From positions 141,256 through 205,255 of the forward strand of contig CANSOA010000003.1 of the NCBI GenBank assembly GCA_947648495.1: a stretch of 64,000 nt of DNA, in the 5' to 3' direction. This DNA is from an uncultured Clostridium sp. Lineage in GTDB: Bacteria; Bacillota; Clostridia; TANB77; CAG-508. Shown here in pieces: positions 765 through 53,545 of this stretch. The notes beneath the pieces are model-generated. The model was not told the DNA's origin. It ran no database searches and saw only the letters and a list, made by a program, of their open reading frames with translations. A program made the translations under genes and the position numbers. Every line of letters starts with the position of its first letter. Position 1 is the first letter of the stretch.

Positions 765-854
765 TTTTTCTTTTTCCTTCCTTTTAATTTATTTTATTAT
801 TTCCAGATTTTTTTTGAATATTCCAAATATTGTAATTTTAATATTTTTAATTTT

Positions 855-985
855 GGAATTTGGGGAAGTAGTTTGGGGGACGTTTTGGAAAAAGTTTGGG
901 GAGGCAGTTTTGGGAAACGGTTTTTTTGGGGAGGAAAGAGTTTTGAGGAGAGGTTTTTTTTGGCGGGACGGGGACAGTCTTTGTG
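855..985 (+). repeat. Degenerate TTTTGGGG-like G-rich tract ending in core GGGACGGGGACAGTCTT (core ~965-981)
   Basis: Direct reading. Same core recurs at more than 10 sites in the window. Confidence 0.8.
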
Positions 986-1039
986 AATAAAACTTTAAAA
1001 TATTTTAAAAATTAAATAAATTGAATTTTCTATTTTGTC

Positions 1040-1180
1040 TATTGGGGGAGGGCATTTGGGGGAATAGTATTTTTGGAGGAAGGAGATTTTGGGGGGAATA
1101 TTTTTGGAGGAATATTTCTGGGGGGAGAGATTTTGGGGGAAGATTTTGAGAAAGATTTTGGGGACGGGGACAGTCTTTAT
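1040..1180 (+). repeat. Second G-rich tract (multiple GGGGG runs) ending in core GGGGACGGGGACAGTCTT (1160-1178)
   Basis: Direct reading. Confidence 0.8.
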
Positions 1181-1422
1181 TAATAAAATCTAAAATATTA
1201 AAAATAAAAAATAACTTAATTAATTTTTTATTTTTAGTATTTTCAGGATAAGAACAGTTTTTCTCAAGTAAATTTCCAAAACACTTTAAAAATAAGCAAA
1301 TTTGAATTTTCACTTTTATTTTTTTGTATTCTTGTTTTGGGAATATCTTGGTAACTTGCCTTAGTTGTCTTGCAGATTTTGTTGGGAATTGTTTTGGTGT
1401 CTTAGTCTGAGTCTTGAGTCTT

Positions 1423-1477
1423 GGGGACGGGGACACTCATAAAAAATTATTTATATTAATCAAGAGTGTCCCCGTCC
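1423..1477. repeat. Inverted pair of the core: GGGGACGGGGACACTC (1423-1438) and GAGTGTCCCCGTCCC (1463-1477), 24-nt AT spacer. Predicted hairpin.
   Basis: Perfect 15-16 nt inverted repeat seen directly. Confidence 0.85.
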
Positions 1478-1640
1478 CGAAAATAAATTAAAATATAAAA
1501 TAATAATAAAAATACCCAAATTAAAAATATCTAAAAATTTAAGAAATTATAATATTGTAATTCCAATTTTTTCATGATATAATTTATAAAATAATAAAAA
1601 TAACTTAAAAACTACTAAAAACATATTTTAAGGAGATTTT

Positions 1641-3436: not shown

Positions 3437-3559
3437 TTTTTGTGCCCTCTTTATTATAAATAATTTATTATTTTTATATCATATTTACTTTAAAATTTCA
3501 ACTATTTTATTTTTAACTTTATTTTAATTACCCTTTTTATCTTTATTTATCTCCTTTTT

Positions 3560-3604
3560 GTTTTTGGTATTTTAGGGGGATTTTGGGGGACGGGGACACT
3601 CTTT
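3560..3604 (+). repeat. G-tract plus core GGGGACGGGGACACTCTT (3586-3604)
   Basis: Direct reading. Lies inside the ybaB-recR spacer. Confidence 0.8.
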
Positions 3605-3687
3605 CTTAGGTAAATCTTCTAAACATTTCTAAAACCTTTATAATCTTAATTTTTAATCTTTTTTATTTTGGTTATTTAGGGGATATT

Positions 3688-3707
3688 TTTGGGACGAGGA
3701 CACTCTT
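3688..3707 (+). repeat. Degenerate core copy GGGACGAGGACACTCTT
   Basis: One mismatch versus the core. Confidence 0.6.
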
Positions 3708-3802
3708 GAAAATTATCTTACTTAATTTTTTGTATAAATAAGAGTTTCCCCAAATTTCAAATTTACCTAATTTACTTAAATTTATTTAATTTTTTATAAA
3801 AT

Positions 3803-3820
3803 CAAGACTGTCCCCGTCCC
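3803..3820 (-). repeat. Core copy in reverse orientation (AAGACTGTCCCCGTCCCC)
   Basis: Reverse complement of GGGGACGGGGACAGTCTT. Confidence 0.8.
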
Positions 3821-3877
3821 CATTTTATTTTTTATTTCTTTCTCTTCTCTGATTCTTCCTCAATTTTTTATACAGCC

Positions 3878-3895
3878 AAGACTGTCCCCGTCCCC
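3878..3895 (-). repeat. Core copy in reverse orientation (AAGACTGTCCCCGTCCCC)
   Basis: Reverse complement of the core. With 3803 and the two forward copies it forms a nested inverted arrangement. Confidence 0.8.
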
Positions 3896-3919
3896 AAATT
3901 TAAATCAATTAATATTACA

Positions 3920-3995
3920 AAATTAATTAAATCCAAATTAATTAAATACAAAATTAATTAAATACAATATTAATTAATTACAATTTAATCAACAA
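3920..3995. repeat. AT-only degenerate tandem repeat, unit ~AATTAATTAAATACA, 4-5 copies
   Basis: Seen directly: ...aattaattaaatccaaattaattaaatacaaaattaattaaatacaatattaattaattaca... Confidence 0.7.
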
Positions 3996-4537: not shown

Positions 4538-6106
4538 TTAATCAATAATATTAATGTCAATCCCCAAACCTTCAAAACTTGATGTATTATCTGAATTCGT
4601 TGCCAAATCAACTTTTCCATCTTTTAATTTAATATTCACTTCATTTCCCGTCAATATTGCTATTGTTTTTATTAAATCATTTTTATTATTTACATCTTCT
4701 AAAAACTCTCTATTAAATTTTGTCAAACCATTCGGAAAGCCAATTTCCCACGTTTGATCATTCAACTTGTTTAAAGAACTTGTCATTAAACAAGTATATA
4801 ACCTTATCTTTCCACTTTTTTTGAGATGCTCCAAAATCGCTTTCCAATCTTCACTTGCTTTTCCTGTTGACACGATTGTTTTTGAAATCGCTTTTTTTTC
4901 AATTCGTCGACTTGCTGATTGTCTTACAGGCTGCCTATTTTGAGCAGTTACAGAAAGCTGATTAATTTGATTTAACTTCTGTTCCAACATCGCAACTTTT
5001 TTCTCTAATTCAGAAATATCACCAGTTTCTTGATTTATACAAAGTTTTATGACACCAGATTGAAACATAATCGTTTTATGCGAAGAATTTTTGATGTTGC
5101 TTTCCAACTCCGATAATCTATAAATCACATTCAAAAGTTTCCCTTTTTCCGTTTTATCCGCCAAATTTTGTATTTGAGATAGTTCTTCTTCTGAATATAA
5201 ATCTAACTTTTTCGTGGTTTTAAAAATTAAAATATCTTTAATATATTTGATTACTTCCCACAAAAAATTATATAAATCCTTGCCGTCTTTTATAACATCA
5301 TCAACTGCTTCTAAAGCCATTATCTCATTATTTTCTAAAATCGCTTTTGCCAACTTTTGAATAAATTCTAACTGTGGCAAACCAACCAATTCTTTTACCA
5401 AATCAATTGTAATTTCCTCAGCACTTTCTTGACTACATCTTTCTAAAATACTAATCGCATCTCTCATAGCTCCTTCTGACAAAACAGCAATCGTCTTTAA
5501 CGCCTCATCTGTTATTTTTATTTTAGATTCAGAAGCTATAATCTTCAATCTTTTTATGATATTTTCTTCATTTATTTTCTTATAATCAAACCTCTGACAA
5601 CGTGAAAGAATAGTCGCTGGAAGTTTTTGCGGTTCAGTTGTTGCCAAAATAAATTTAACGTGCGCTGGCGGTTCCTCTAACGTTTTCAACAATGCATTAA
5701 ACGCCCCTACAGAAAGCATATGAACTTCGTCAATAATATAGACTCTATATTTTGCTTTTGTTGGCAAAAAATTCACTTCATCGCGAATACTACGAATATC
5801 TTCAACACTATTATTAGATGCAGCGTCCATCTCCACAACATCCGTTAAAGAGCCATCTAAAATGCTTTTACAAATTTCACATTCATTGCAAGGTTCACCA
5901 TTTTGTGGATTTAAACAATTTACAACACGTGCTAATATCTTAGCAGAAGTTGTTTTTCCCGTTCCACGTCCACCACTCATTAAATAGGCATGTCCGACGC
6001 GCCCTGCCATAATTTGATTTTTTAGTGTTTTTGTAATATGTTCTTGTCCAACCATATCTTCAAATTTGAGCGGTCTAAAAGTTCGATATAACGCTGTATA
6101 AGACAT
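4538..6106 (-). CDS. dnaX: DNA polymerase III subunits gamma/tau
   Basis: 522 aa. Walker A GGRGTGKTT, DEVHML, clamp-loader zinc module CNPQNGEPCNECEIC. Confidence 0.9.
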   Translation of the reverse strand: MSYTALYRTFRPLKFEDMVGQEHITKTLKNQIMAGRVGHAYLMSGGRGTGKTTSAKILARVVNCLNPQNGEPCNECEICKSILDGSLTDVVEMDAASNNSVEDIRSIRDEVNFLPTKAKYRVYIIDEVHMLSVGAFNALLKTLEEPPAHVKFILATTEPQKLPATILSRCQRFDYKKINEENIIKRLKIIASESKIKITDEALKTIAVLSEGAMRDAISILERCSQESAEEITIDLVKELVGLPQLEFIQKLAKAILENNEIMALEAVDDVIKDGKDLYNFLWEVIKYIKDILIFKTTKKLDLYSEEELSQIQNLADKTEKGKLLNVIYRLSELESNIKNSSHKTIMFQSGVIKLCINQETGDISELEKKVAMLEQKLNQINQLSVTAQNRQPVRQSASRRIEKKAISKTIVSTGKASEDWKAILEHLKKSGKIRLYTCLMTSSLNKLNDQTWEIGFPNGLTKFNREFLEDVNNKNDLIKTIAILTGNEVNIKLKDGKVDLATNSDNTSSFEGLGIDINIID

Positions 6107-28202: not shown

Positions 28203-29918
28203 ATGGCTGATTTTGATATTAATACAATTTCACTTGATTTTTACCGTGCTTCTAAAGAAGCTTTTTTGAAACAAGTCAGAGATTCAGATAAAACAAAACC
28301 TTATTACTTTATCAAAAAGTCCGTTTTTATAGAAACTTTCACAGTTGAATTTCAAAAAACTTGTCGTTCCTTAGCTAAGCAATATTCTTTGGAACCTTCT
28401 GCTATTCAAGATTTTATTCTGCCAAGACTTGATGCGCAATCTGGAACGCCTATTATAAGTACAACTTCTTCATTAGATACTTCTAAAATTAAAGATTCAA
28501 TTCAATCTTATATAAATAAATATTCTACTGAAATGATACAAGAAAAACTCAATGGAAATCTTGAGAAAAATGAGACCACAATTTCTGAAGAAAAAAATTC
28601 TTTGTCAGCAGAAGAACAAGAGAAGAAAGAACATTTTTATCAGTTATTTGAAGAGTATAGTAAATTGGAAACTTTTGAAGAAAAAAGGAATTTTATCGCA
28701 AAAAATTATAACATTCATATGGCTGAATTAGAGCAGGAAGAACAAGAAAACTTCATTTCTCAATTTGAAAAAACAATGACTTTTTCTAAAAAACTAGACA
28801 CCATGATAACCGATGATATGAATTTAGAACAAATCGAAGAACTAAAAAATAAACTTGCTAAAGAATTACATATACCAGAAGAAAATATTCCTAAAATTGA
28901 AGAATTATATGATTCTATCATAAATGGAAATCAAGAAAATGCGATTAAAATTGCAAAAGAAATGGGTATGACTGAGAAAGAAATCGAAAAAATATCAGGA
29001 GAAATAAAAGAACAAGAAACAGAAAGTGATACTTCTTTTAAAAAGTCATATGACTCAACCCAAAACATAATAGAACCCCATTTTGATATTTCACTTCAAA
29101 ATGATGATGAACTAACTGCGTTATTTGATGCCGAACCTACTGAAGAAATTACATATGAAGAAGATAAAAAAGAAACAGATATTAATAATACTTTAGAATT
29201 TGCAAATGATGATTTTGATAATTTATTCGAAAACGAAGACGAACTAACTGCTTTATTTGATGCCGAACCTACTGAAGAAATTACATATGAAGAGGATAAA
29301 AAAGAAACAGACATTAATAATACTTTAGAATTTGTAAATGATGATTTTGATAATTTATTCGAAAACGAAGACGAAATAAGTGTTTTGTTCGATACAGAAC
29401 CTATTGAAGAAATTGATATAAATATGGCAAATTCCGACCAGCAAATACCCGATGCTCAAAAAGAAACTTTATCAGGTCACCCTTCTATGATGCTTGGCGC
29501 AGAACCGCAAGATTATATTGATGATATACAAATTTCAAAAATGCAAGAATTTTTCAAAAACATAACAGATAAATTAAAAACCATACCAATTATCAAAAAT
29601 CTATTCATTCCAAAAAATACGCTTTTAGAGGCTGGACAACCACAAATAACTCAAACTCAACAAACAAGCAATTTACCAGCAAAACAAACTCTATTTACAC
29701 GAGCAAGGGCATTTTTATTAAACCTAACATCGAAAAATGAAGCTACCCATAATCAGTCTACTCATTATATAGAGCCAGAAAAACAGGATTTTAGTTACAC
29801 TGGTCCACTAAATCCTATCGAACCACAAAATTCAAGACCAGAAATAATCTCAATTGACTTACAAAATAATGCTACTCAAACAGACATAAAGCAGGAAAAT
29901 GCTTTCGAAATTGAATAA
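28203..29918 (+). CDS. Acidic hypothetical protein with internal 44-aa tandem repeats
   Basis: 571 aa. ELTALFDAEPTEEITYEEDKKETDINNTLEF(A/V)NDDFDNLFENED x2 plus a diverged third copy. Confidence 0.5.
   Translation: MADFDINTISLDFYRASKEAFLKQVRDSDKTKPYYFIKKSVFIETFTVEFQKTCRSLAKQYSLEPSAIQDFILPRLDAQSGTPIISTTSSLDTSKIKDSIQSYINKYSTEMIQEKLNGNLEKNETTISEEKNSLSAEEQEKKEHFYQLFEEYSKLETFEEKRNFIAKNYNIHMAELEQEEQENFISQFEKTMTFSKKLDTMITDDMNLEQIEELKNKLAKELHIPEENIPKIEELYDSIINGNQENAIKIAKEMGMTEKEIEKISGEIKEQETESDTSFKKSYDSTQNIIEPHFDISLQNDDELTALFDAEPTEEITYEEDKKETDINNTLEFANDDFDNLFENEDELTALFDAEPTEEITYEEDKKETDINNTLEFVNDDFDNLFENEDEISVLFDTEPIEEIDINMANSDQQIPDAQKETLSGHPSMMLGAEPQDYIDDIQISKMQEFFKNITDKLKTIPIIKNLFIPKNTLLEAGQPQITQTQQTSNLPAKQTLFTRARAFLLNLTSKNEATHNQSTHYIEPEKQDFSYTGPLNPIEPQNSRPEIISIDLQNNATQTDIKQENAFEIE
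29109..29420 (+). repeat. 132-bp tandem repeat (about 2.4 copies) inside the 28203-29918 CDS
   Basis: Copies starting 29109 and 29241 differ at only a few bases. Third copy from ~29373 is diverged. Confidence 0.8.
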
Positions 29919-39047: not shown

Positions 39048-39835
39048 AATTTTCTAAATAATACAACATATATTTACATTTGTCAATATATTTTTGCAAA
39101 TTTTTTAAAATTTTCTGAATATTTTTTCAAAATTCGACAATACTATGATTATAAGGTTTATATTAACCTAACTTAGAGTAATACGAGGTCAATTTTGGCT
39201 TTTTATTATTCGAGCTAAGATGTTATATAGCTGAAGCAATCCTTTGGTTATATAATGTCGGACGCAACCGAGTATATTATTTGTTTGTAAGCTATTTATC
39301 TTTTCGTTTTTTCGAGCCAATTAAATGGTTGAATAATAGGTAATATATTCCAAGTCATGATGATACTTGTATTTCGTCGTGGTTGTTAATAGTCTCATTT
39401 TGAGATGAATATGGCTACTGCAAGTGCATTTATTGTCTAGCAACTGATTAATATAGGTGGTATATAGGTTATTCTTATAGTGATATAAGTTAGCTTAGAC
39501 TATTATGTATATTAGTTTTAGCTGAAAGCTAATATAAGCTTTATCGATGAACCTAGCTTTAAGTGTATTCTTAAGCTAGGTTTCAATTTTTATGCTATTT
39601 TCATAATTTACAGGTACATTTTACTAAGCATTTTGAATAAAAAATATAACCGTTATATATTATTTTACTTACAATTATCAAATATAATTTCAACAAAAAA
39701 ACAGAAATAACCAAAATTATTTCTGTAATATCCCCTAACTTTTATTATATCATATTTATGCAAACTTGTCAATTGACAAATCATTAAAAATATGCTCTCA
39801 ATTGATTTTACTTAATTTGAGGTCTTTTCTTAGGT

Positions 39836-39853
39836 AAGAGTGTCCCCGTCCCC
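39836..39853 (-). repeat. Solo core copy (AAGAGTGTCCCCGTCCCC)
   Basis: Reverse complement of the GGGGACGGGGACACTCTT core. Confidence 0.8.
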
Positions 39854-40022
39854 AACTAAACCAACTTAACCATCTTCATTCTACAAAAATTTAAAATTTC
39901 TGCAAAACTTTTTATTTTTATCTTGACATCTGTAATTTTTTCTTGTACAATACATTTACTTTTTATCTCAAAAATTTATTTCCAAATAAAACTTCCACAA
40001 AATAAAATTTAATTAATAGGAG

Positions 40023-48009: not shown

Positions 48010-48158
48010 AAAAGCTTTTGGAGGTTTTAGTTTTGACTTTTTGGGTGTTTTGGTCTTTGGTGGAGGTTTTGGGAGGAGATTTTAGGGGGAGATTTTTAAG
48101 GAAGATTTTTGTTTTTTTGTTTTTTTGGGGGAAGGTTTTGGGGACGGGGACACTCTTT
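48010..48158 (+). repeat. G-rich TTTTGG(G) tract ending in core GGGGACGGGGACACTCTT (48140-48158)
   Basis: Direct reading. Confidence 0.8.
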
Positions 48159-48321
48159 GTAAGAAAAGTCTCTAAAACCCTCTAAAATAAAGTGAGAGCA
48201 TATTTTTTATTTTTTGTCAACTTTACATAATAGCAAAAATATGATATAATGAAAGTTGGAGCATGTTGATAAAAATAATTCATATTTATTATGCTAATAA
48301 AGAAGGCTTTTAAACCTTCTT

Positions 48322-49053
48322 TTATTTTATAATTTGTTCCATTCTTCCATAAACTAGATTCGTCCAGTTAGGATTAACTGGGCAAAATCTTGTCCTAACA
48401 GCAGACAATGTTTTTCCATGATAAAATCTTCCACCTTCAGATAAATAATTTTTGTGCAAAGTACTAGCTGCTCTCTCAAGCCCTTCTTCTACTGAACTAA
48501 ATTGAATTAGAGAACCACCATTTCCCATTAAACTAATATAATTATGCGTTCTTCTATGATTTCCAGCTATGTTCCATCCAGATTCTGCCGAAATTAATCC
48601 GCAGAAAAAAATCTCATTTAACTGATATTTTTCACATATATCATAAATTAGCCCCGCATTTTGCTCAAAAAATCCTGATGTATCTGCTCTTACGCTCGCC
48701 ATTAATTGGATGAAGTCTTCTCTCGAAATATTGCATCTTATGGTCAAATCCATGTCTTTTGTAATTGTAATTTCATTGATTGAATTGTACATTTCACGTT
48801 GACGTGCCCTAGCATATCTTGAAACCACTTCATCAGTAGCAACTTCCTTTTTGGGCGTATATGATGCAACAATCATTTTTGAATCTAAAACTTTTTTGTT
48901 TTCTATATTATTTTGTTCCTTTTTCGTTAAACTCGCTATTTTATCATTAACTTGCCCTAAGTTTAAAATTCCAATAACAATACCTGTAATCATTAGGATA
49001 ACACATATTATAATAAGTTGTTTTAAATTTTGAGCACTTCTCTTGTTTTCCAT
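48322..49053 (-). CDS. Membrane-anchored GH73 N-acetylglucosaminidase-domain protein
   Basis: 243 aa. FFCGLISAESGWN glucosaminidase block plus N-terminal TM. Confidence 0.5.
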   Translation of the reverse strand: MENKRSAQNLKQLIIICVILMITGIVIGILNLGQVNDKIASLTKKEQNNIENKKVLDSKMIVASYTPKKEVATDEVVSRYARARQREMYNSINEITITKDMDLTIRCNISREDFIQLMASVRADTSGFFEQNAGLIYDICEKYQLNEIFFCGLISAESGWNIAGNHRRTHNYISLMGNGGSLIQFSSVEEGLERAASTLHKNYLSEGGRFYHGKTLSAVRTRFCPVNPNWTNLVYGRMEQIIK

Positions 49054-49149
49054 TTTTTTCCCTTTCCTTTATGGTCGATTTTAATATATCATTAATTTAA
49101 AAAAATGTCAAATTCGGAATGAGAATTGTTTAGAAATTTTAAATCTATT

Positions 49150-49450
49150 TTTAATTATTTTGGGATGGTGGATGTAGGTAGGGGTGGTGAGGAATAGCTG
49201 GGTGGGGGACTGGCTGGGTGAGATGGATTTGGGGGATTTTTTTTTGGGGGGACTTTTTTGGTTTTTTGGGGATTTTTTTGGGGACGGGGACACTCTTTGG
49301 TTTTGTTATGTAGAAAAATAGAGTAAAAATGAGAAAAATGAAGATAATTAATTTTTAAGAGTGTCCCCGTCCCACCAATCCCCAAAATCCCACAAAATTC
49401 CTCAAAATCTCACAAAAACCAAAATCCCAACCCACCAAAAAAACACCAGA
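49150..49450. repeat. Composite palindromic element: G-tract, core (49280-49298), 58-nt AT spacer, inverted core (49357-49373), C-rich mirror tract
   Basis: Direct reading. ORF-track entries 49108-49385 (proline-rich) are translation artefacts of the C-tract. Confidence 0.8.
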
Positions 49451-49586
49451 AACAAAAAATAAAATAATTAAAATTACCAAAACAATTAAAATCTCAAAAC
49501 ACTGAAATTAACACTTACTTAAAAACTTAATTAATTAACAACCTCCAAAATTTTAAACACTATTATTTTACAAAAGTGCTTCTATT

Positions 49587-50196
49587 TTATTTAATTTCCT
49601 CAAATCTCCTACTTACTTCATTCCAATTTATAATATTCCAGAAACTACTCACATAATCTGCACGATTTGCCTTATACTGCAAAAAATAAGAATGCTCCCA
49701 CATATCCAGTACAAGTAGAGGAACACATCTCCAAAGCGTTAAATTCTGATGTTTTTCACATTGCAAAATTTGTAATTTCTTCCACTTTGGTACCCACACA
49801 AGCAAATTCCACCCGAGAAGCTTCAACTACTTTACTACTTGCCGTAAATTGACTTTTAAAAACTGGAAAAGTTCCAAAATCCTGATTGATTTGATTCATT
49901 AATTTCACACTTGGTCTACTTTGTGTTGCAGGTCCCATATTGGTGAAAAATAATTCATGTAAAATAACACCCGAACCCTGAAATGATAGTTCCTTTTCTA
50001 AACATTTTATATTCTCAAAATCATTACTTTTCCTAGCTTGCTTTAATTTTTCTTCCACTTTATTTGTGTTATCAACATAGGCTGAATATAAAGTATGATA
50101 ATGAATATTTAATGTTTCTCTACTATAAAACGGCTCTAACGCATTTAAGTTATATGGCAAATTTATTTTTTCTAACATCTCAAACCTCCTTAACAT
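49587..50196 (-). CDS. sod: Fe/Mn superoxide dismutase; reading-frame break at in-frame CGG (49813-49815)
   Basis: N-terminal ORF has LPYNLNALEPF...HYHTLY. C-terminal ORF has LDMWEHSYF...FWNIINW. Skipping the C restores ...VVEASGWNLLVW, matching the Bacillus subtilis SodA alignment (...GRFGSGWAWLVV). Confidence 0.75.
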
Positions 50197-50578: not shown

Positions 50579-53545
50579 CTATCTCTCTGCCAAAGCCATC
50601 ATATCTTTTTTCAATTTGGCTAATTGCTGATCTGCCTCTTCCATTGTCTTTCCTTTCACTCCCATGTAAAACTTAATCTTTGGCTCTGTTCCAGAAGGTC
50701 GTACGCAACACCATACATCGTTTTCCATTGCGTAATATAAAACATTCGAGATTGGCAATCCTGTTTTTGCCTCTTTTCCAGTTTTTGTATCGACCATTAT
50801 TCCTGTCTTATAATCCCTTATCTCAAGCACTTTATAACCACCAATTTCTTTTGGGGGATTACTTCTTATCGCATCCATAATTTCCTTAATTTTGACCGCT
50901 CCATCAGCACCTTTTAACGTAATCATTACGGTTTCTTCTTTATAAAATCCATATTTCCTATAAATATTTAACATCTGATCCCATAAAGTCAAACCTTGCT
51001 TTTTATAAAATGCTGCAGCTTCACAAAGCATCATAACCGCTGTAATTCCGTCTTTATCCCTTGCGTGTGTTCCAACCAAACAGCCATAACTTTCCTCAAA
51101 TCCAAAAACATATTCATGTTTTCCTGTTTCTTCAAAATTTCTAATTTGCTCACCGATAAACTTGAAACCAGTAAGTGTTTCTACAAAATGCATACCATAT
51201 TCTCTTGCAATCGCGCCTGCCAAATTTGAGGAAACTATCGTTGATACAAAAGCTGGATTTTTCGGCATCAAATTTTTCTCTTTTCTTTGTGATAACACAT
51301 ATTCCGCAATTAGCAATGCTGACATATTTCCTGAAAAAGGAATATATTCTCCTGTTTTTGAATCTTTTGAAAATACCCCTAATCGATCCGCATCTGGATC
51401 AGTTGCTAGTACAACATCTGCATTTACTTTTTTAGCCAATTTTAATGCCAATGCAAATGCTTTCACATCTTCTGGATTTGGATACTCTACGGTTGGAAAA
51501 TTCCCATTTGGCAATTCCTGTTCTGGAACCACAAATACGTTTGTAAATCCTAATTCCGACAAAACTCTTTGTACTGGCTTATTTCCTGTTCCATGCAAAG
51601 GCGTATAAACGATATTTAAATCTTTTTCCACTTCTTTGATAATTTCTGAATTTAAAACCTGTTTTTTTATAGCATTCAAATACAATTTATCCATTGCACT
51701 TCCTATAATATTGTACAATCCAGTATTTTGAGCCTCTTCATAAGAGATTCTTTTAACCAATGAATAATCTGTTACATTATTGACTTCTTCAATAATTTCC
51801 TTATCTTTCGGTGCCACAATTTGCGCTCCATCGTCCCAATAAACTTTATATCCATTATATTCTGGTGGATTATGGCTAGCTGTAATCATAATTCCTGCTG
51901 TACATCCAAGCTCCCTTACAGCAAATGACAATTCTGGCACAGGCTTAATTTCGTCGAAAATATATGTTTTAATTCCATTGGCATTTAAACATAACGCTGT
52001 CTCAATCGCAAATTCTTTTGACATTCTTCTAGAATCATACGAAATTGCAACACCTTTACTTTCGCTACCTTCTCTTAAAATAAAATTTGCCAAACCTTGT
52101 GTAGCTTTTGTAACCGTATAGACATTCATTCGATTAGTACCATTGCCGATTACACCTCTTAAACCTGCTGTTCCAAATTCCAAGTCTTTGTAAAATCGAT
52201 CTTTGATTTCCTCTTCGTCACCAGCAATTAATAATAATTCATGACGTGTTTCTTCGTCAAAAGCTGGATTTGTGCACCATTGACTATATTTTTTCATATA
52301 ATTTAATTTTGAGAAAAAGTCCGTATACAATTTTCTCGCTGTTTCTGGACTATCCACACCTTCCGCATTTTTAATTGGCGCAAATTCTTCTTCTCTTTTT
52401 ACTCTTAAAATAAGCACATCATTCAACATTTCAAAGGCATCAAAAATAAACATTTCAAATTTATACGCATTTGGTTTATCACTTACAATTAATTTTCCAT
52501 CTTTGTCGATATAATTCGCCTTTTTTACAGCGGTATGATAAGGTAATTTCAAATTTGTGACTTTTTCTAAAGCTTTCATATTAAACAATTGCATAATTAC
52601 ATTGGAATCTCCATAAACCAAAGAACCATAGTCATCTCTCATATTAGCCATTTCACTTGATATTTCAGTATATTCAATAACACCAACTCTTCCATTTTTC
52701 TTACAAATAACACCAACTTTTTCTTTTGGGTCAATTTTTTCAACTGATTTTACTGCACTATAAACTTTATTCGAAATTGCCATTCCAATTAACAATGGGT
52801 CAACTAAATTAGCCAAAATATTATCCACACCACTTACAAAAATCCATTCTACGCCATTTTCCTTCATTTCATTAATCACATTACTTCTTTCCATTGATTG
52901 AAGTGTTCCACCATGACCATTTGCCGCTTCTTTAATGCCTCCATTTTCATTTAGCAATATTTTCCCATCCAAATCAAGCATTGGTAATTGTCCTTGTTTA
53001 AAGAAATGCACCGCTTCTTTTGGATAACCAAAATAATTGTGTTCCTCAAAAAATTGAATAGTTTGATCATTATTTTCTTGACTTGTCATAATATACCAAG
53101 GAATAATAGCTTCATATTTAAACATCGCTTTTTTGATGCCTTCGCACAAAAGTTCAAAAATTGATTTATGCGAATCTAAGCCTAAATCATACGTACCTTT
53201 TGGACCCTTATGACCCAATCTTGTGCCTTGACCACCAGCCATTGTAACAACTGCATATTTTCCTTTTTTGATGGCTTCAATTCCTTTTTGCTCATAGATA
53301 TTTCTTTCGGCTGTCGTTAATTTAGATTTTTCTATATAATCTACAGGCTCAATTACTTCCTTTTTTAAATTATCATTTTTATTTACATTTTTATACAAAT
53401 GATCCATTAATTGAAAATCAATATTTTCAACTTTATTTAATAATTCATTTTGCTCTTTCTCATTCATTTTGTTGTAGAACATTAATAAATGTTCTTGTCC
53501 ATATTTTTCTAATTTGCTTTTTATTTCTGCAAGTTTATCCCCCAT
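50579..53545 (-). CDS. Fusion: N-terminal UDP-sugar pyrophosphorylase (UAP/UDPGP family) + C-terminal alpha-D-phosphohexomutase (PGM/PMM)
   Basis: aa ~95-120 VVTMAGGQGTRLGHKGPKG (UDPGP). aa ~450 onward FGTAGLRG...ITASHNPPEYNGYKVY...FGFEESYG (phosphohexomutase). Confidence 0.75.
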   Translation of the reverse strand: MGDKLAEIKSKLEKYGQEHLLMFYNKMNEKEQNELLNKVENIDFQLMDHLYKNVNKNDNLKKEVIEPVDYIEKSKLTTAERNIYEQKGIEAIKKGKYAVVTMAGGQGTRLGHKGPKGTYDLGLDSHKSIFELLCEGIKKAMFKYEAIIPWYIMTSQENNDQTIQFFEEHNYFGYPKEAVHFFKQGQLPMLDLDGKILLNENGGIKEAANGHGGTLQSMERSNVINEMKENGVEWIFVSGVDNILANLVDPLLIGMAISNKVYSAVKSVEKIDPKEKVGVICKKNGRVGVIEYTEISSEMANMRDDYGSLVYGDSNVIMQLFNMKALEKVTNLKLPYHTAVKKANYIDKDGKLIVSDKPNAYKFEMFIFDAFEMLNDVLILRVKREEEFAPIKNAEGVDSPETARKLYTDFFSKLNYMKKYSQWCTNPAFDEETRHELLLIAGDEEEIKDRFYKDLEFGTAGLRGVIGNGTNRMNVYTVTKATQGLANFILREGSESKGVAISYDSRRMSKEFAIETALCLNANGIKTYIFDEIKPVPELSFAVRELGCTAGIMITASHNPPEYNGYKVYWDDGAQIVAPKDKEIIEEVNNVTDYSLVKRISYEEAQNTGLYNIIGSAMDKLYLNAIKKQVLNSEIIKEVEKDLNIVYTPLHGTGNKPVQRVLSELGFTNVFVVPEQELPNGNFPTVEYPNPEDVKAFALALKLAKKVNADVVLATDPDADRLGVFSKDSKTGEYIPFSGNMSALLIAEYVLSQRKEKNLMPKNPAFVSTIVSSNLAGAIAREYGMHFVETLTGFKFIGEQIRNFEETGKHEYVFGFEESYGCLVGTHARDKDGITAVMMLCEAAAFYKKQGLTLWDQMLNIYRKYGFYKEETVMITLKGADGAVKIKEIMDAIRSNPPKEIGGYKVLEIRDYKTGIMVDTKTGKEAKTGLPISNVLYYAMENDVWCCVRPSGTEPKIKFYMGVKGKTMEEADQQLAKLKKDMMALAER

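What the first reader, a model, noticed from the sequence alone, without database searches (positions are those of the whole stretch)
49150..49450. Largest copy: ~300-bp near-symmetric element (G-tract, core, 58-nt spacer, inverted core, C-tract) between sod and a peptidoglycan hydrolase
The left arm (49150-49298) is G/T-rich and ends in the core. The right arm (49357-~49450) is its C/A-rich mirror (CCACCAATCCCCAAAATCCCACAAAATTCC...). The whole could extrude as a cruciform or a long RNA hairpin with G4-capable single strands. The proline-rich ORFs in the ORF track here are artefacts.
Basis: seen in the sequence. Interest (0 to 1): 0.55.

Follow-up and report, generated by a model that had tools for sequence, protein, structure and literature searches.

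The report
Transposase-linked inverted repeat with G-rich tails
The 300-bp "mirror" is a 95-bp mobile-type inverted-repeat doublet, whose 17-bp ends are the same repeats that flank a domesticated RAYT-like tyrosine transposase gene in related gut Clostridia, and in this genome each outer edge has separately grown a G-rich tandem-repeat tail.

Summary
A perfect 17-bp inverted repeat (GGGACGGGGACACTCTT, 49281-49297 / 49357-49373) flanks a 59-bp spacer, with a G/T-rich stretch on the left and a C/A-rich stretch on the right. The two arms are not reverse complements: 63 matches against 64.8±3.7 in shuffles.

The core occurs 14 times in the window (0 expected), always between genes. In related uncultured low-GC Clostridia the same core flanks, in inverted orientation, a single-copy 170-190 aa HUH/Y1 transposase. 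Its model best matches E. coli TnpA-REP (4ER8). The core contains the published GGGGWSAS motif of TIRYT/"TIRtron" repeats.

The real unit is the ~95-bp core-spacer-core doublet, conserved across at least five assemblies. The orthologous sod-hydrolase gap is empty in one relative and holds tail-less doublets in two others.

The tails are lineage-specific degenerate 10-14-nt tandem arrays that start at the outer edge of each core. Arrays abut 9 of 14 outer edges, 1 of 14 inner edges, against an 11% background. They hold every strong G4-prone segment of the window.

I infer that repeated transposase nicking or slippage at the core terminus produced them; this is untested. The system is a new member of a known kind, and the tails are an undescribed variant feature.

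The parts
49162..49279 (+). Left tail. A G/T-rich, C-poor degenerate tandem-repeat tract that abuts the outer edge of the left core. The units are a T-run, a G-run and A(C), for example TTTTTTGGGGAT x1.9 at 49262-49284, which runs into the core.
   Evidence: Composition. Tandem Repeats Finder rows at 49248-49284. G4Hunter at least 1.5 along 49160-49293. Similarity to TTTTGGGGAC decays with distance from the core. Absent at the orthologous site in L088, L089 and L090.
49280..49297 (+). Left core: GGGGAC GGGGAC ACTCTT, a TIR-type repeat that contains GGGGACAC, which fits GGGGWSAS.
   Evidence: The motif is described in PMC3733652 and PMC6006769.
49298..49356 (.). 59-nt A/T- and purine-rich spacer of the doublet. 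It belongs to the conserved 'TTGTATAGAAAAAT..AAG..' spacer subfamily.
   Evidence: 77% identical to the reverse complement of spacer 53723-53781 (z 3.5). Aligns with doublets from L088, L007, L033, L070 and L083 at 79% mean column identity (A4).
49357..49373 (-). Right core in inverted orientation (AAGAGTGTCCCCGTCCC on the + strand).
   Evidence: (I7).
49374..49458 (-). Right tail. C/A-rich on the + strand, so G/T-rich on the - strand. It is a period-10 degenerate array (AATCCCACAA x4.2 at 49377-49417) and is not homologous to the left tail.
   Evidence: (D1-D2).
49083..49111 (-). Context: sigma-70-type promoter of the downstream 243-aa gene (TTGACA-17-TATATT, 11 of 12 matches). The left tail has pushed it about 170 nt away from the doublet; the distance is 10-11 nt in L088 and L089.
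843..1177 (+). Two tandem units of tail, core and trailer (cores at 965 and 1161). This is a local duplication of the whole ~196-nt unit.
   Evidence: Both tract and trailer are similar between the two units (z 3.0 and 3.3).
1399..1478 (.). Tight doublet (cores 1424+ and 1462-1478-, 21-nt spacer). A GTCTTGA x3.9 array abuts the left core.
3554..3983 (.). Cluster of two direct and two inverted cores (3587+, 3691+, 3804-3820-, 3878-3894-). This is the same 2+2 layout that flanks the transposase gene in L049, but here only 96 nt lie between the inner cores. An AT-rich 16-nt x5 array (3902-3983) abuts the outermost right core.
39836..39872 (-). Solo core with a short 9-nt x2.3 array (CCAACTAAA) at its outer edge. 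Its trailer is homologous to that of 48141+.
48027..48157 (+). Solo core (48141-48157) with a ~115-nt G/T-rich tail. The insertion is present only in this lineage.
53706..53864 (.). Doublet of the same spacer subfamily in opposite orientation (cores 53706+ and 53782-53798-, 59-nt spacer). The tail is on one side only and is G/A-rich on the - strand.

Best explanation
What it is. The feature is a copy of a dispersed, non-autonomous repeat family. The family's 17-18-bp core (T)GGGGACGGGGACA(C/G)TCTT is the terminal inverted repeat of a domesticated, single-copy HUH/Y1 tyrosine transposase. That enzyme is of the RAYT/TIRYT kind and occurs in a narrow clade of uncultured low-GC gut Clostridia.

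The unit. The mobile or propagated unit at this locus is the ~95-bp doublet 49280-49373, made of a core, a 59-nt conserved spacer and an inverted core. It is analogous to a REPIN. It sits between the 3' end of a frameshifted sod gene and the promoter of the next gene.

How it most likely works (inferred from the biochemistry of IS608 TnpA and E. coli TnpA-REP). On single-stranded DNA the two cores pair into a 17-bp stem. The Y1 enzyme recognises this hairpin and cuts at its foot, at the outer edge of the core.

The arms. The G/T-rich and C/A-rich arms are not part of that unit. They are two independent, degenerate 10-14-nt tandem-repeat arrays that grew outward from the outer edge of each core in this lineage. 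They look mirrored only because the same polar process acted on each inverted core.

Origin of the tails (inference, about 35%). Repeated nicking at the core terminus leaves a 3'-OH on the flank. Repair or replication synthesis then slips on the T-run/G-run junction and re-copies 'T-run + GGGGA(C)', adding new units next to the core. Plain hairpin-stalled replication slippage would give the same pattern.
For: Shown:
1. The core occurs 14 times in 64 kb against 0 expected, always between genes. It is abundant only in a few low-GC Clostridia MAGs. It is absent from 340 kb of more distant relatives.
2. In L049 a 170-aa protein is flanked by two direct cores on the left and two inverted cores on the right. 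It hits Pfam Y1_Tnp at 30.9 bits (cutoff 23), and its best NCBIfam hit is REP_Tyr_transpos at E 5e-15.
3. In L086/L087 a 64%-identical homologue is flanked by core(+) 51 nt upstream and core(-) 22 nt downstream.
4. ~250-aa relatives carry their own related inverted repeats, such as TTTGGGACGGAGCAAAA.
5. The HUH motif and catalytic Tyr are invariant in the family alignment. The AlphaFold model (pLDDT 90.5) best matches 4ER8, TnpA-REP bound to a REP hairpin, at TM 0.68-0.69, followed by IS608 and ISDra2 TnpA. The sequence profile also hits 4ER8 at E 3.5e-4.
6. The core contains GGGGACAC/GGGGACAG, which fits the GGGGWSAS motif reported for repeats flanking TIRYT genes.
7. The doublet is a conserved unit across at least five assemblies, and conservation stops exactly at GGGG...CCCC.
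8. The orthologous sod-hydrolase gap is empty in L090, holds a tail-less doublet in L088, and holds a variant-core tail-less doublet in L089.
9. On the tails: the arms are not homologous. Tandem arrays abut 9 of 14 outer core edges, 1 of 14 inner edges, against an 11% background (P 3e-6). Several arrays include the first GGGGA of the core. Similarity to TTTTGGGGAC decays outward. Copies sharing a 76%-identical trailer differ in having a 115-nt tail or almost none.
Against: - No transposase gene lies in the 64-kb window. Its presence in this genome is not shown.
- The NCBIfam RAYT hit is below the curated cutoff (55.7-67.6 bits against 80).
- One homologue locus (L085) keeps only the right core.
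- Mobility is inferred only from presence or absence between species. No excision or insertion event and no within-species polymorphism was seen.
- A single core does not fold on its own. How a hairpin-reading Y1 enzyme would handle solo cores is unclear.
- For the tail mechanism, several tails have similar lengths (~115-125 nt), which random slippage does not predict.
- Other MAGs with the same cores show no excess of arrays at the outer edge (13 of 81 outer against 16 of 81 inner). If the transposase causes the tails, something else must differ in this lineage.
Confidence: 0.75

Rival explanations
1. The whole ~300 bp is one functional structural element. It would be a long cruciform or RNA hairpin with G-quadruplex-capable strands, selected to regulate or insulate sod and the downstream gene.
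For: The predicted long hairpin is more stable than shuffles (z -3.7). All strong G4Hunter segments of the window lie in these tracts. The element sits just upstream of a strong promoter.
Against: The arms are not complementary beyond composition (z -0.5). The tails are absent from the orthologous doublets in L088 and L089, and the site is empty in L090, so the neighbouring genes work without them. Tail sequence, length and even base type (G/T or G/A) differ between copies. There is no Rfam family and no terminator-like site.
Confidence: 0.08
2. In this genome the tail is part of the transposed unit. A longer element variant of about 120 nt of G-rich tract plus the core would move as a whole, rather than the tail growing in place.
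For: Four tails have similar lengths of ~115-125 nt. The solo core-plus-tail at 48027-48157 is an insertion seen only in this lineage. The tandem units 843-1177 share similarity in both tract and trailer.
Against: The cores are identical, yet tails of different copies are no more alike than shuffled sequence (z -0.6, -2.4, 1.3 and -0.5). The exception is the local tandem duplicate. 48141+ and 39852- share a 76%-identical trailer but have a 115-nt tail and a ~20-nt tail respectively. The orthologous doublet in L088, with the same spacer subfamily and orientation, has no tails. Arrays of quite different composition also abut cores: AT-rich 16-mers at 3902-3983 and GTCTTGA at 1399-1423.
Confidence: 0.12
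3. The family is a miniature inverted-repeat element (MITE) of a classical DDE transposon. The cores would be its terminal inverted repeats.
For: The architecture of inverted 17-18-bp ends around a short internal region resembles a MITE. A T-G often precedes the core (T at 79%, G at 89%), which recalls TG...CA ends.
Against: There is no convincing target-site duplication: 8 doublets with a direct repeat of at least 4 nt at fixed offset, against 6.0±1.9 in permuted pairs (P 0.2). The only gene found bounded by the cores is a Y1/HUH protein, in two species.
Confidence: 0.03
4. The cores are protein-binding or uptake-type signals unrelated to transposition. They would be DNA-uptake sequences or bidirectional terminators, which often occur as inverted pairs after genes.
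For: The density is about 1 per 4.6 kb. Inverted pairs are frequent, and many copies in other MAGs lie just after terminator hairpins.
Against: No T-run follows the hairpin, and the loops are 21-173 nt, so none scores as a terminator. The tight link to a Y1 transposase gene and the conserved spacers explain the pairs better. The family is confined to a narrow clade.
Confidence: 0.02

Closest known systems
TIRtrons / TIRYT-associated TIR repeat families (Di Nocera et al. 2013, PMC3733652). These correspond to TnpA-REP subclass 2.1 of Quentin et al. 2018 (PMC6006769) and RAYT group 1 of Bertels et al. 2017 (PMC5581495).
   Same: A RAYT-like Y1 gene is flanked by terminal inverted repeats that are not self-palindromic. 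The repeats share the GGGGWSAS motif, here GGGGACAC/GGGGACAG. Copies are dispersed between genes as singles, dimers and clusters. Longer relatives carry a weak C-terminal helix-turn-helix domain, as described for subclass 2.1.
   Different: The hosts are uncultured low-GC Clostridia rather than Proteobacteria or Acidobacteria. The associated enzyme clade is short (170-190 aa) and lacks the C-terminal helix-turn-helix domain. The core has a duplicated GGGGAC hexamer. Density is high, at 14 per 64 kb. The doublets have conserved spacers. In this genome there are G-rich tandem-repeat tails at the outer edges, which the papers I read do not mention. Assignment to subclass 2.1 / group 1 is inferred, not tested by phylogeny.
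REPIN-RAYT systems (Bertels & Rainey 2011, PMC3116915; REP/BIME and TnpA-REP of E. coli, PDB 4ER8)
   Same: Two inverted repeats with a spacer form a hairpin-capable doublet. The Y1 gene is single-copy, flanked by the repeats and held at a syntenic position across species. The location is between genes. The modelled fold is closest to 4ER8.
   Different: Classical REPs are 20-40-nt imperfect palindromes with a 5' GTAG/GT[AG]G foot. This core does not fold on its own and has no GTAG. REPIN populations have been tied to RAYT groups 2 and 3 in Gammaproteobacteria.
IS200/IS605 (IS608, ISDra2) and their palindrome-associated derivatives
   Same: The same HUH/Y1 fold. Single-strand hairpin recognition, no target-site duplication, and cleavage at a fixed distance from a hairpin.
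   Different: Those are multi-copy autonomous insertion sequences with different left and right subterminal hairpins. Here the gene is single-copy and only the short repeats are multiplied.
Ciliate telomeric T4G4 repeats / G-quadruplex minisatellites
   Same: Runs such as TTTTGGGG recur at a ~10-14-nt period and score as G4-prone.
   Different: The resemblance is superficial. These are internal and degenerate, sit in a bacterial chromosome, are attached to a transposase-type repeat, and are sometimes G/A-rich or AT-rich instead.

Membership tests
TIRtron / TIRYT-associated TIR repeats | A RAYT-like HUH/Y1 transposase gene is bounded by inverted copies of the same repeat. | tested here: met
   L049 has two direct cores on the left and two inverted cores on the right of a 170-aa Y1 protein. 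L086/L087 have core(+) 51 nt upstream and core(-) 22 nt downstream. This was shown in related MAGs, not in the window itself.
TIRtron / TIRYT-associated TIR repeats | The inverted repeat carries the GGGGWSAS motif and is not itself a palindrome. | tested here: met
   The core holds GGGGACAC or GGGGACAG. A single core folds at 0 to -0.5 kcal/mol. The motif is taken from PMC3733652 and PMC6006769.
TIRtron / TIRYT-associated TIR repeats | Repeat copies are dispersed between genes as singles, dimers or clusters. | tested here: met
   The window has 14 copies: 3 doublets, a 2+2 cluster, 2 tandem copies and 2 solo copies, all outside ORFs.
TIRtron / TIRYT-associated TIR repeats | The cognate transposase gene is present in the same genome as the repeats. 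| not testable with these tools
   There is no homologue in the 64-kb window (tblastn), and the rest of the genome is not available. It is met for MAG CANEDP01 (L049).
RAYT / TnpA-REP protein family (HUH-Y1) | An HUH motif, a catalytic Tyr and the TnpA-REP-like fold. | tested here: met
   H60, H62 and Y120 are invariant in 30-37 homologues. Pfam Y1_Tnp is above its cutoff. The model has pLDDT 90.5 and its top match is 4ER8 at TM 0.68. The NCBIfam equivalog NF047646 is the best hit but below its cutoff.
Classical REP / REPIN (RAYT groups 2 and 3) | Each REP is a 20-40-nt imperfect palindrome with a conserved 5' GTAG-type tetranucleotide. | tested here: not met
   The core is not self-complementary and has no GTAG.
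Classical REP / REPIN (RAYT groups 2 and 3) | Doublets of inverted repeats with a short spacer form a hairpin and are the replicated unit. | tested here: met
   The doublet is conserved as a unit across assemblies. The 17-bp stem gives z -5.05. 39 doublets were found, with recurring spacer-length classes of 53-68 nt and ~170 nt.
Classical REP / REPIN (RAYT groups 2 and 3) | A single-copy, vertically inherited transposase at a conserved chromosomal position. | tested here: inconclusive
   The same upstream non-coding sequence and downstream small ORF flank the gene in L049 and L086; L085 shares only the upstream sequence. Most protein clusters are seen on few contigs. No phylogenetic congruence test was done.
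DDE-transposon MITE | A fixed-length target-site duplication flanks the inverted repeats. | tested here: not met
   8 against 6.0±1.9 expected at fixed offset (P 0.2). Only a weak signal appears with free offsets.
Intrinsic terminator | A GC-rich stem with a short loop followed by a T-run. | tested here: not met
   0 terminator-like sites in 48900-49700. The loop is 59 nt and no T-run follows on either strand.
G-quadruplex-forming sequence | At least four G-runs within reach of each other, and actual folding into a quadruplex. | tested here: inconclusive
   The sequence propensity is met, with G4Hunter up to 1.9-2.2 in the tails. Folding cannot be tested with these tools.

The most novel reading that the evidence does not exclude
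The G-rich tails are a genomic footprint of the Y1 enzyme's own activity. Repeated nicking at the outer foot of the core primes slipped re-synthesis, which adds telomere-like 'T-run + GGGGA(C)' units next to the core. This would make them the first in-vivo read-out of where and how often a RAYT/TIRYT-type enzyme cuts. Together with the conserved 95-bp doublets, it would mean that a short, HTH-less relative of group-1 RAYTs drives an active REPIN-like population in Firmicutes. In the work I read, only RAYT groups 2 and 3 showed flanking 16-mers more abundant than those of insertion sequences; Escherichia and Pseudomonas were the genera chosen for those two groups (PMC5581495).
Probability: 0.25. 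Interest if true: 0.6.

Novelty: new variant of a known kind. Interest (0 to 1): 0.45.

Why it matters
- Repeats tied to RAYT-type domesticated transposases are a model for long-lived intragenomic replicators. The paper I read (PMC5581495) ties highly abundant flanking repeats only to RAYT groups 2 and 3 and studies those groups in Escherichia and Pseudomonas; it reports few repeats for the group-1/TIRYT branch.
- This case shows a dense family (about 1 core per 4.6 kb) with conserved doublets in uncultured gut Clostridia. It is linked to a short Y1 enzyme kept at a syntenic site.
- The tails localise tandem-duplication activity precisely to the outer edge of the core. If the enzyme causes them, they give a testable handle on its cleavage site and on how such elements reshape promoter-proximal DNA. 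Here the doublet-to-promoter distance has grown from about 10 nt to about 170 nt.
- Practically, these tracts are the only strong G4-prone sequences in the region and are likely assembly breakpoints in metagenomes.

Tried and rejected
- Rfam at gathering thresholds found only a tRNA and the SRP RNA, and nothing at the element.
- tblastn for the transposase in the window found nothing. A search of the window for the genes that neighbour the transposase in L049 also found nothing.
- phmmer of the single protein against the PDB found nothing. A family profile and a structure model were needed.
- Target-site duplication as evidence for a DDE-type MITE was rejected.
- The terminator reading was rejected.
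- The idea that elements insert next to pre-existing G/T-rich DNA was rejected for this locus. The empty site in L090 and the filled sites in L088 and L089 have no such tract.
- The idea that the two arms are diverged mirror copies was rejected.
- An assembly artefact is unlikely. A Logan assembly of run SRR15510239 is 100% identical over 5.5 kb including the element. It is not known whether the window comes from the same run.
- The closest relative (P0122, 87% identity) was uninformative. Both contigs end 34-37 nt upstream of the gene, just where the repeat region would begin.
- P0004 was not on record for a context look-up.
- The metagenome scan returned only relatives at 45-78% identity, with no cores in 340 kb. 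It gave no within-species tail polymorphism.
- I considered strand-specific deamination (A to G and C to T) as the source of the G/T bias. I dropped it because one tail is G/A-rich and others are AT-rich tandem arrays.
- Literature searches for the core sequence, and for RAYT together with G-quadruplex or slippage, found no prior description.
Full report

At 49281-49297 (+) and 49357-49373 (-) there is a perfect 17-nt inverted repeat, GGGACGGGGACACTCTT, with 59 nt between the arms. With the preceding G, the left copy reads GGGGAC GGGGAC ACTCTT.

The left flank (49162-49279) is G 45%, T 39%, C 3%. The right flank is C/A-rich on the + strand; on the - strand it is G 29%, T 56%, C 1%.

The core is not a chance event. 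Allowing three mismatches, it occurs 14 times in the 64-kb window, each copy with at most one mismatch, against 0.00 in 100 dinucleotide-preserving shuffles.

- A global alignment of the 110-nt left arm with the reverse complement of the right arm gives 63 matches, against 64.8±3.7 for shuffles (z -0.5).
- The best local score is 34. Unrelated tracts from other copies score 25-44 against each other.
- The predicted long hairpin is more stable than shuffles (z -3.7). Composition alone already gives the shuffles -38 kcal/mol, and the 17-bp core supplies most of the excess.

The real symmetry is therefore the core plus mirrored base composition.

**2. What the family looks like**

All 14 cores lie between ORFs:
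- three doublets (1424/1478, 49281/49373, 53706/53798);
- a cluster of two direct plus two inverted cores (3587, 3691, 3820, 3894);
- two tandem copies (965, 1161);
- two solo copies (39852, 48141).

A profile of 95 copies from the window and related loci shows an invariant block, (T)GGGGACGGGGACA(C/G)TCTT. Conservation ends abruptly on the outer side, the outer flank is C-depleted, and the inner side is A-rich. A single core does not fold (0 to -0.5 kcal/mol). A tight doublet folds at -22 kcal/mol.

**3. Where else it occurs**

An exact-pattern scan of one genome per species found the core in many copies only in a few low-GC assemblies labelled uncultured Clostridia, Eubacteriales or Clostridium (CANEDP01, CAOJUE01, CAOJGX01). 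One further low-GC assembly, CABSIM01 (uncultured Clostridiaceae), gave a single hit. Other hits were single chance matches, mostly in high-GC genomes.

None of those loci is the window's own genome. An independent Logan assembly of run SRR15510239 is 100% identical over 5.5 kb including the element, so it is not an assembler artefact.

In 340 kb around orthologues of the neighbouring gene from more distant relatives (45-78% protein identity; rumen and human-gut metagenomes) there is not one core. The family belongs to a narrow clade.

**4. The link to a transposase**

In L049 (CANEDP01) two direct cores, a 170-aa ORF and two inverted cores form one block. The protein hits Pfam Y1_Tnp at 30.9 bits (cutoff 23). 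Its best NCBIfam family is the REP-associated tyrosine transposase (E 5e-15, below the curated cutoff).

A search of the large protein collection found two groups of homologues:
- a tight clade of 170-190-aa proteins at 60-80% identity;
- a broader ~250-aa family, some members of which are named 'REP element-mobilizing transposase RayT'.

A 64%-identical homologue in another species (L086/L087, GC 26%) is again bounded by core(+) 51 nt upstream and core(-) 22 nt downstream. An 80%-identical one (L085) keeps only the right core. The ~250-aa relatives sit among housekeeping genes and carry their own related inverted repeats, for example TTTGGGACGGAGCAAAA twice on the left and once inverted on the right.

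The HUH histidines and the tyrosine are invariant. A family profile hits PDB 4ER8 (E. coli TnpA-REP) at E 3.5e-4. An AlphaFold model (pLDDT 90.5, pTM 0.86) has 4ER8 as its best structural match (TM 0.68/0.69), followed by the IS608 and ISDra2 transposases.

The same upstream non-coding sequence and downstream small ORF flank the gene in L049 and L086; L085 shares only the upstream sequence. This points to a single-copy, vertically inherited gene.

The window itself has no such gene. Whether this genome has one cannot be told from 64 kb.

**5. Comparison with the literature**

Di Nocera et al. (PMC3733652) described RAYT-like genes flanked not by REP palindromes but by terminal inverted repeats. 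They named these 'TIRtrons' and their enzymes 'TIRYT'. Many of the repeats share the motif GGGGWSAS, and some form moderately abundant families arranged as singles, dimers or clusters.

Quentin et al. (PMC6006769) place most of these in TnpA-REP subclass 2.1, which has a C-terminal helix-turn-helix domain and equals RAYT group 1 of Bertels et al. According to PMC5581495, group 1 is also found in Clostridia but is associated with few repeats (12 occurrences of the flanking 16-mers).

The core here contains GGGGACAC/GGGGACAG, an exact fit to GGGGWSAS. The ~250-aa relatives have weak C-terminal helix-turn-helix hits, and the 170-aa clade lacks that domain.

I therefore file the family under TIRYT-associated repeats. 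It works like a REPIN-RAYT system but is not a classical REP: it has no self-palindrome and no GTAG. A search of the paper library for the core sequence found no bacterial description.

**6. What the unit is, and the history of this locus**

Aligning doublets of the same spacer type from the window (49281/49373, and 53706/53798 in the opposite orientation) and from L088, L007, L033, L070 and L083 gives 79% mean column identity from GGGG to CCCC, and none outside. The spacers at 49298-49356 and 53723-53781 are 77% identical (z 3.5). The repeated unit is therefore the ~95-bp doublet.

The orthologous interval between sod and the 243-aa gene differs between relatives:

| Genome | Identity of the 243-aa protein | What lies between sod and the promoter |
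|---|---|---|
| L090 | 80% | 76 nt in total, no element |
| L089 | 80% | Tail-less doublet with both hexamers changed (GGGGCCGGGGCCACTCTT), 10 nt from the -35 box |
| L088 | 85% | Tail-less doublet, 11 nt from the -35 box |
| Window | - | Doublet plus tails, about 170 nt from the -35 box (TTGACA-17-TATATT, 49083-49111) |

The solo core-plus-tail at 48027-48157 is absent from all three relatives. I found no convincing target-site duplication, which is consistent with a Y1 rather than a DDE mechanism.

**7. The tails**

Tandem Repeats Finder shows that the tracts are degenerate arrays of 8-14-nt units. Examples:
- AGATTTTTGGGGGA x4.5 at 1084-1147;
- TTTTTTGGGGAT x1.9 at 49262-49284;
- AATCCCACAA x4.2 at 49377-49417.

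Arrays lie within 6 nt of the outer edge of 9 of 14 cores, but of only 1 of 14 inner edges. The background for non-coding positions is 11% (binomial P 3e-6). Several arrays run into the first GGGGA of the core.

Some arrays are not G-rich at all: AT-rich 16-mers at 3902-3983, GTCTTGA at 1399-1423, and a G/A-rich tract at 53799-53864. The common factor is therefore tandem duplication of whatever adjoins the core terminus.

Similarity to TTTTGGGGAC falls from 7.5 of 10 next to the core to background by 120-140 nt. Copies with a 76%-identical trailer (48141+ and 39852-) have a 115-nt tail and a ~20-nt tail respectively. Tails of different copies are no more alike than shuffles, except for the local tandem duplicate at 843-1177.

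In the other assemblies that carry the same cores there is no outer-edge excess (13 of 81 outer against 16 of 81 inner), although short G-rich tails occur in places (for example L023 and L055). The phenomenon is strongest in this lineage. Every G4Hunter segment of at least 1.5 in the window lies in these tails.

**8. Mechanism: what is shown and what is inferred**

Shown:
- the identity and distribution of the family;
- its physical link to a RAYT-fold Y1 protein in related genomes;
- the doublet as the conserved unit;
- presence or absence at orthologous sites;
- the polar, edge-localised tandem duplication.

Inferred from the known biochemistry of IS608 TnpA and E. coli TnpA-REP (single-strand hairpin recognition, cleavage at the hairpin foot, a 5'-phosphotyrosine link that leaves a 3'-OH): the enzyme recognises the stem formed by the two cores on single-stranded DNA and cuts at the outer edge.

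Further inference (about 35%): repeated nicking there, followed by slipped re-synthesis on the T-run/G-run junction, adds units next to the core. Hairpin-stalled replication slippage is an alternative with the same outcome. Co-transposition of tail and core (about 12%) and selection for a structural or regulatory role (about 8%) are less well supported.

**9. Verdict**

The feature is real. Its interpretation as a 300-bp palindrome is wrong. It is a new member of the known TIRYT/RAYT-associated repeat kind, in a host group where such families are little documented. Its undescribed variant feature is the G4-prone tandem-repeat tails at the outer core edges. Interest is moderate.

Noticed in passing
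window 48200-48320 (+) and 39660-39790 (-); also L085:5040-5150, L012:~5500, L070 just upstream of the core at 5114: A second small repeat family. It has a strong promoter-like site (TTGTCAAcTTGACA-17-TATGATATAAT), then AAAGTTAGGGCATATT, then a short hairpin with a T-run. That amounts to a promoter directly followed by a terminator, giving a ~45-75-nt transcript. At 48262 there is a 16-codon ORF after GGAG. In the window both copies lie about 55 nt inside the two 'solo' cores, so those may be larger composite units.
   Followed up: partly
window 49587-50196 (-): The Fe/Mn superoxide dismutase gene is split into two ORFs, 146 aa with Sod_Fe_N and 79 aa with Sod_Fe_C. This looks like a frameshift or pseudogene. 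L088 has only a 145-aa call with the Sod_Fe_N domain. The gene is intact (195-199 aa) in L089, L090 and L091.
   Followed up: partly
L089:2875-2947: The orthologous doublet in a related species has both hexamers of both cores changed in concert (GGGGCC GGGGCC ACTCTT instead of GGGGAC GGGGAC). This hints at co-evolution of the core with its binding protein, or at replacement by that species' own master sequence.
   Followed up: no
window 3587-3894: Two direct plus two inverted cores at ~74-104-nt spacing reproduce the layout that flanks the transposase gene in L049, but only 96 nt lie between the inner cores. This could be an emptied TIRtron or a nested double doublet. The flanks are not syntenic with L049.
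   Followed up: partly
L049:1800-1900, L085:3830-3930, L086:2090-2170: A conserved non-coding stretch (ttttacggaaatt...gttaaattt.cattaca...) lies just upstream of the transposase block in three species. A conserved small ORF (MNNNMDINKLL...) lies downstream in L049 and L086 (not in L085). The function of both is unknown.
   Followed up: no
window 29080-29414: A 132-nt tandem repeat, 2.5 copies, 90% matches (Tandem Repeats Finder score 535). It is probably a repeat inside a coding region.
   Followed up: no
L096 and L097 (contig ends): Two independent short-read contigs from the closest relative (87% identity) both end 34-37 nt upstream of the 243-aa gene, inside its promoter. This is consistent with assemblies breaking at the repeat or low-complexity region.
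   Followed up: no
window 50579-53545 (-): A 988-aa ORF fuses a UDP-sugar pyrophosphorylase-type domain to a phosphoglucomutase-type domain. The domain assignments come from the gene calls on the orthologues in L090 and L091, not from a scan of this ORF. In L091 the region is called as two overlapping genes.
   Followed up: no
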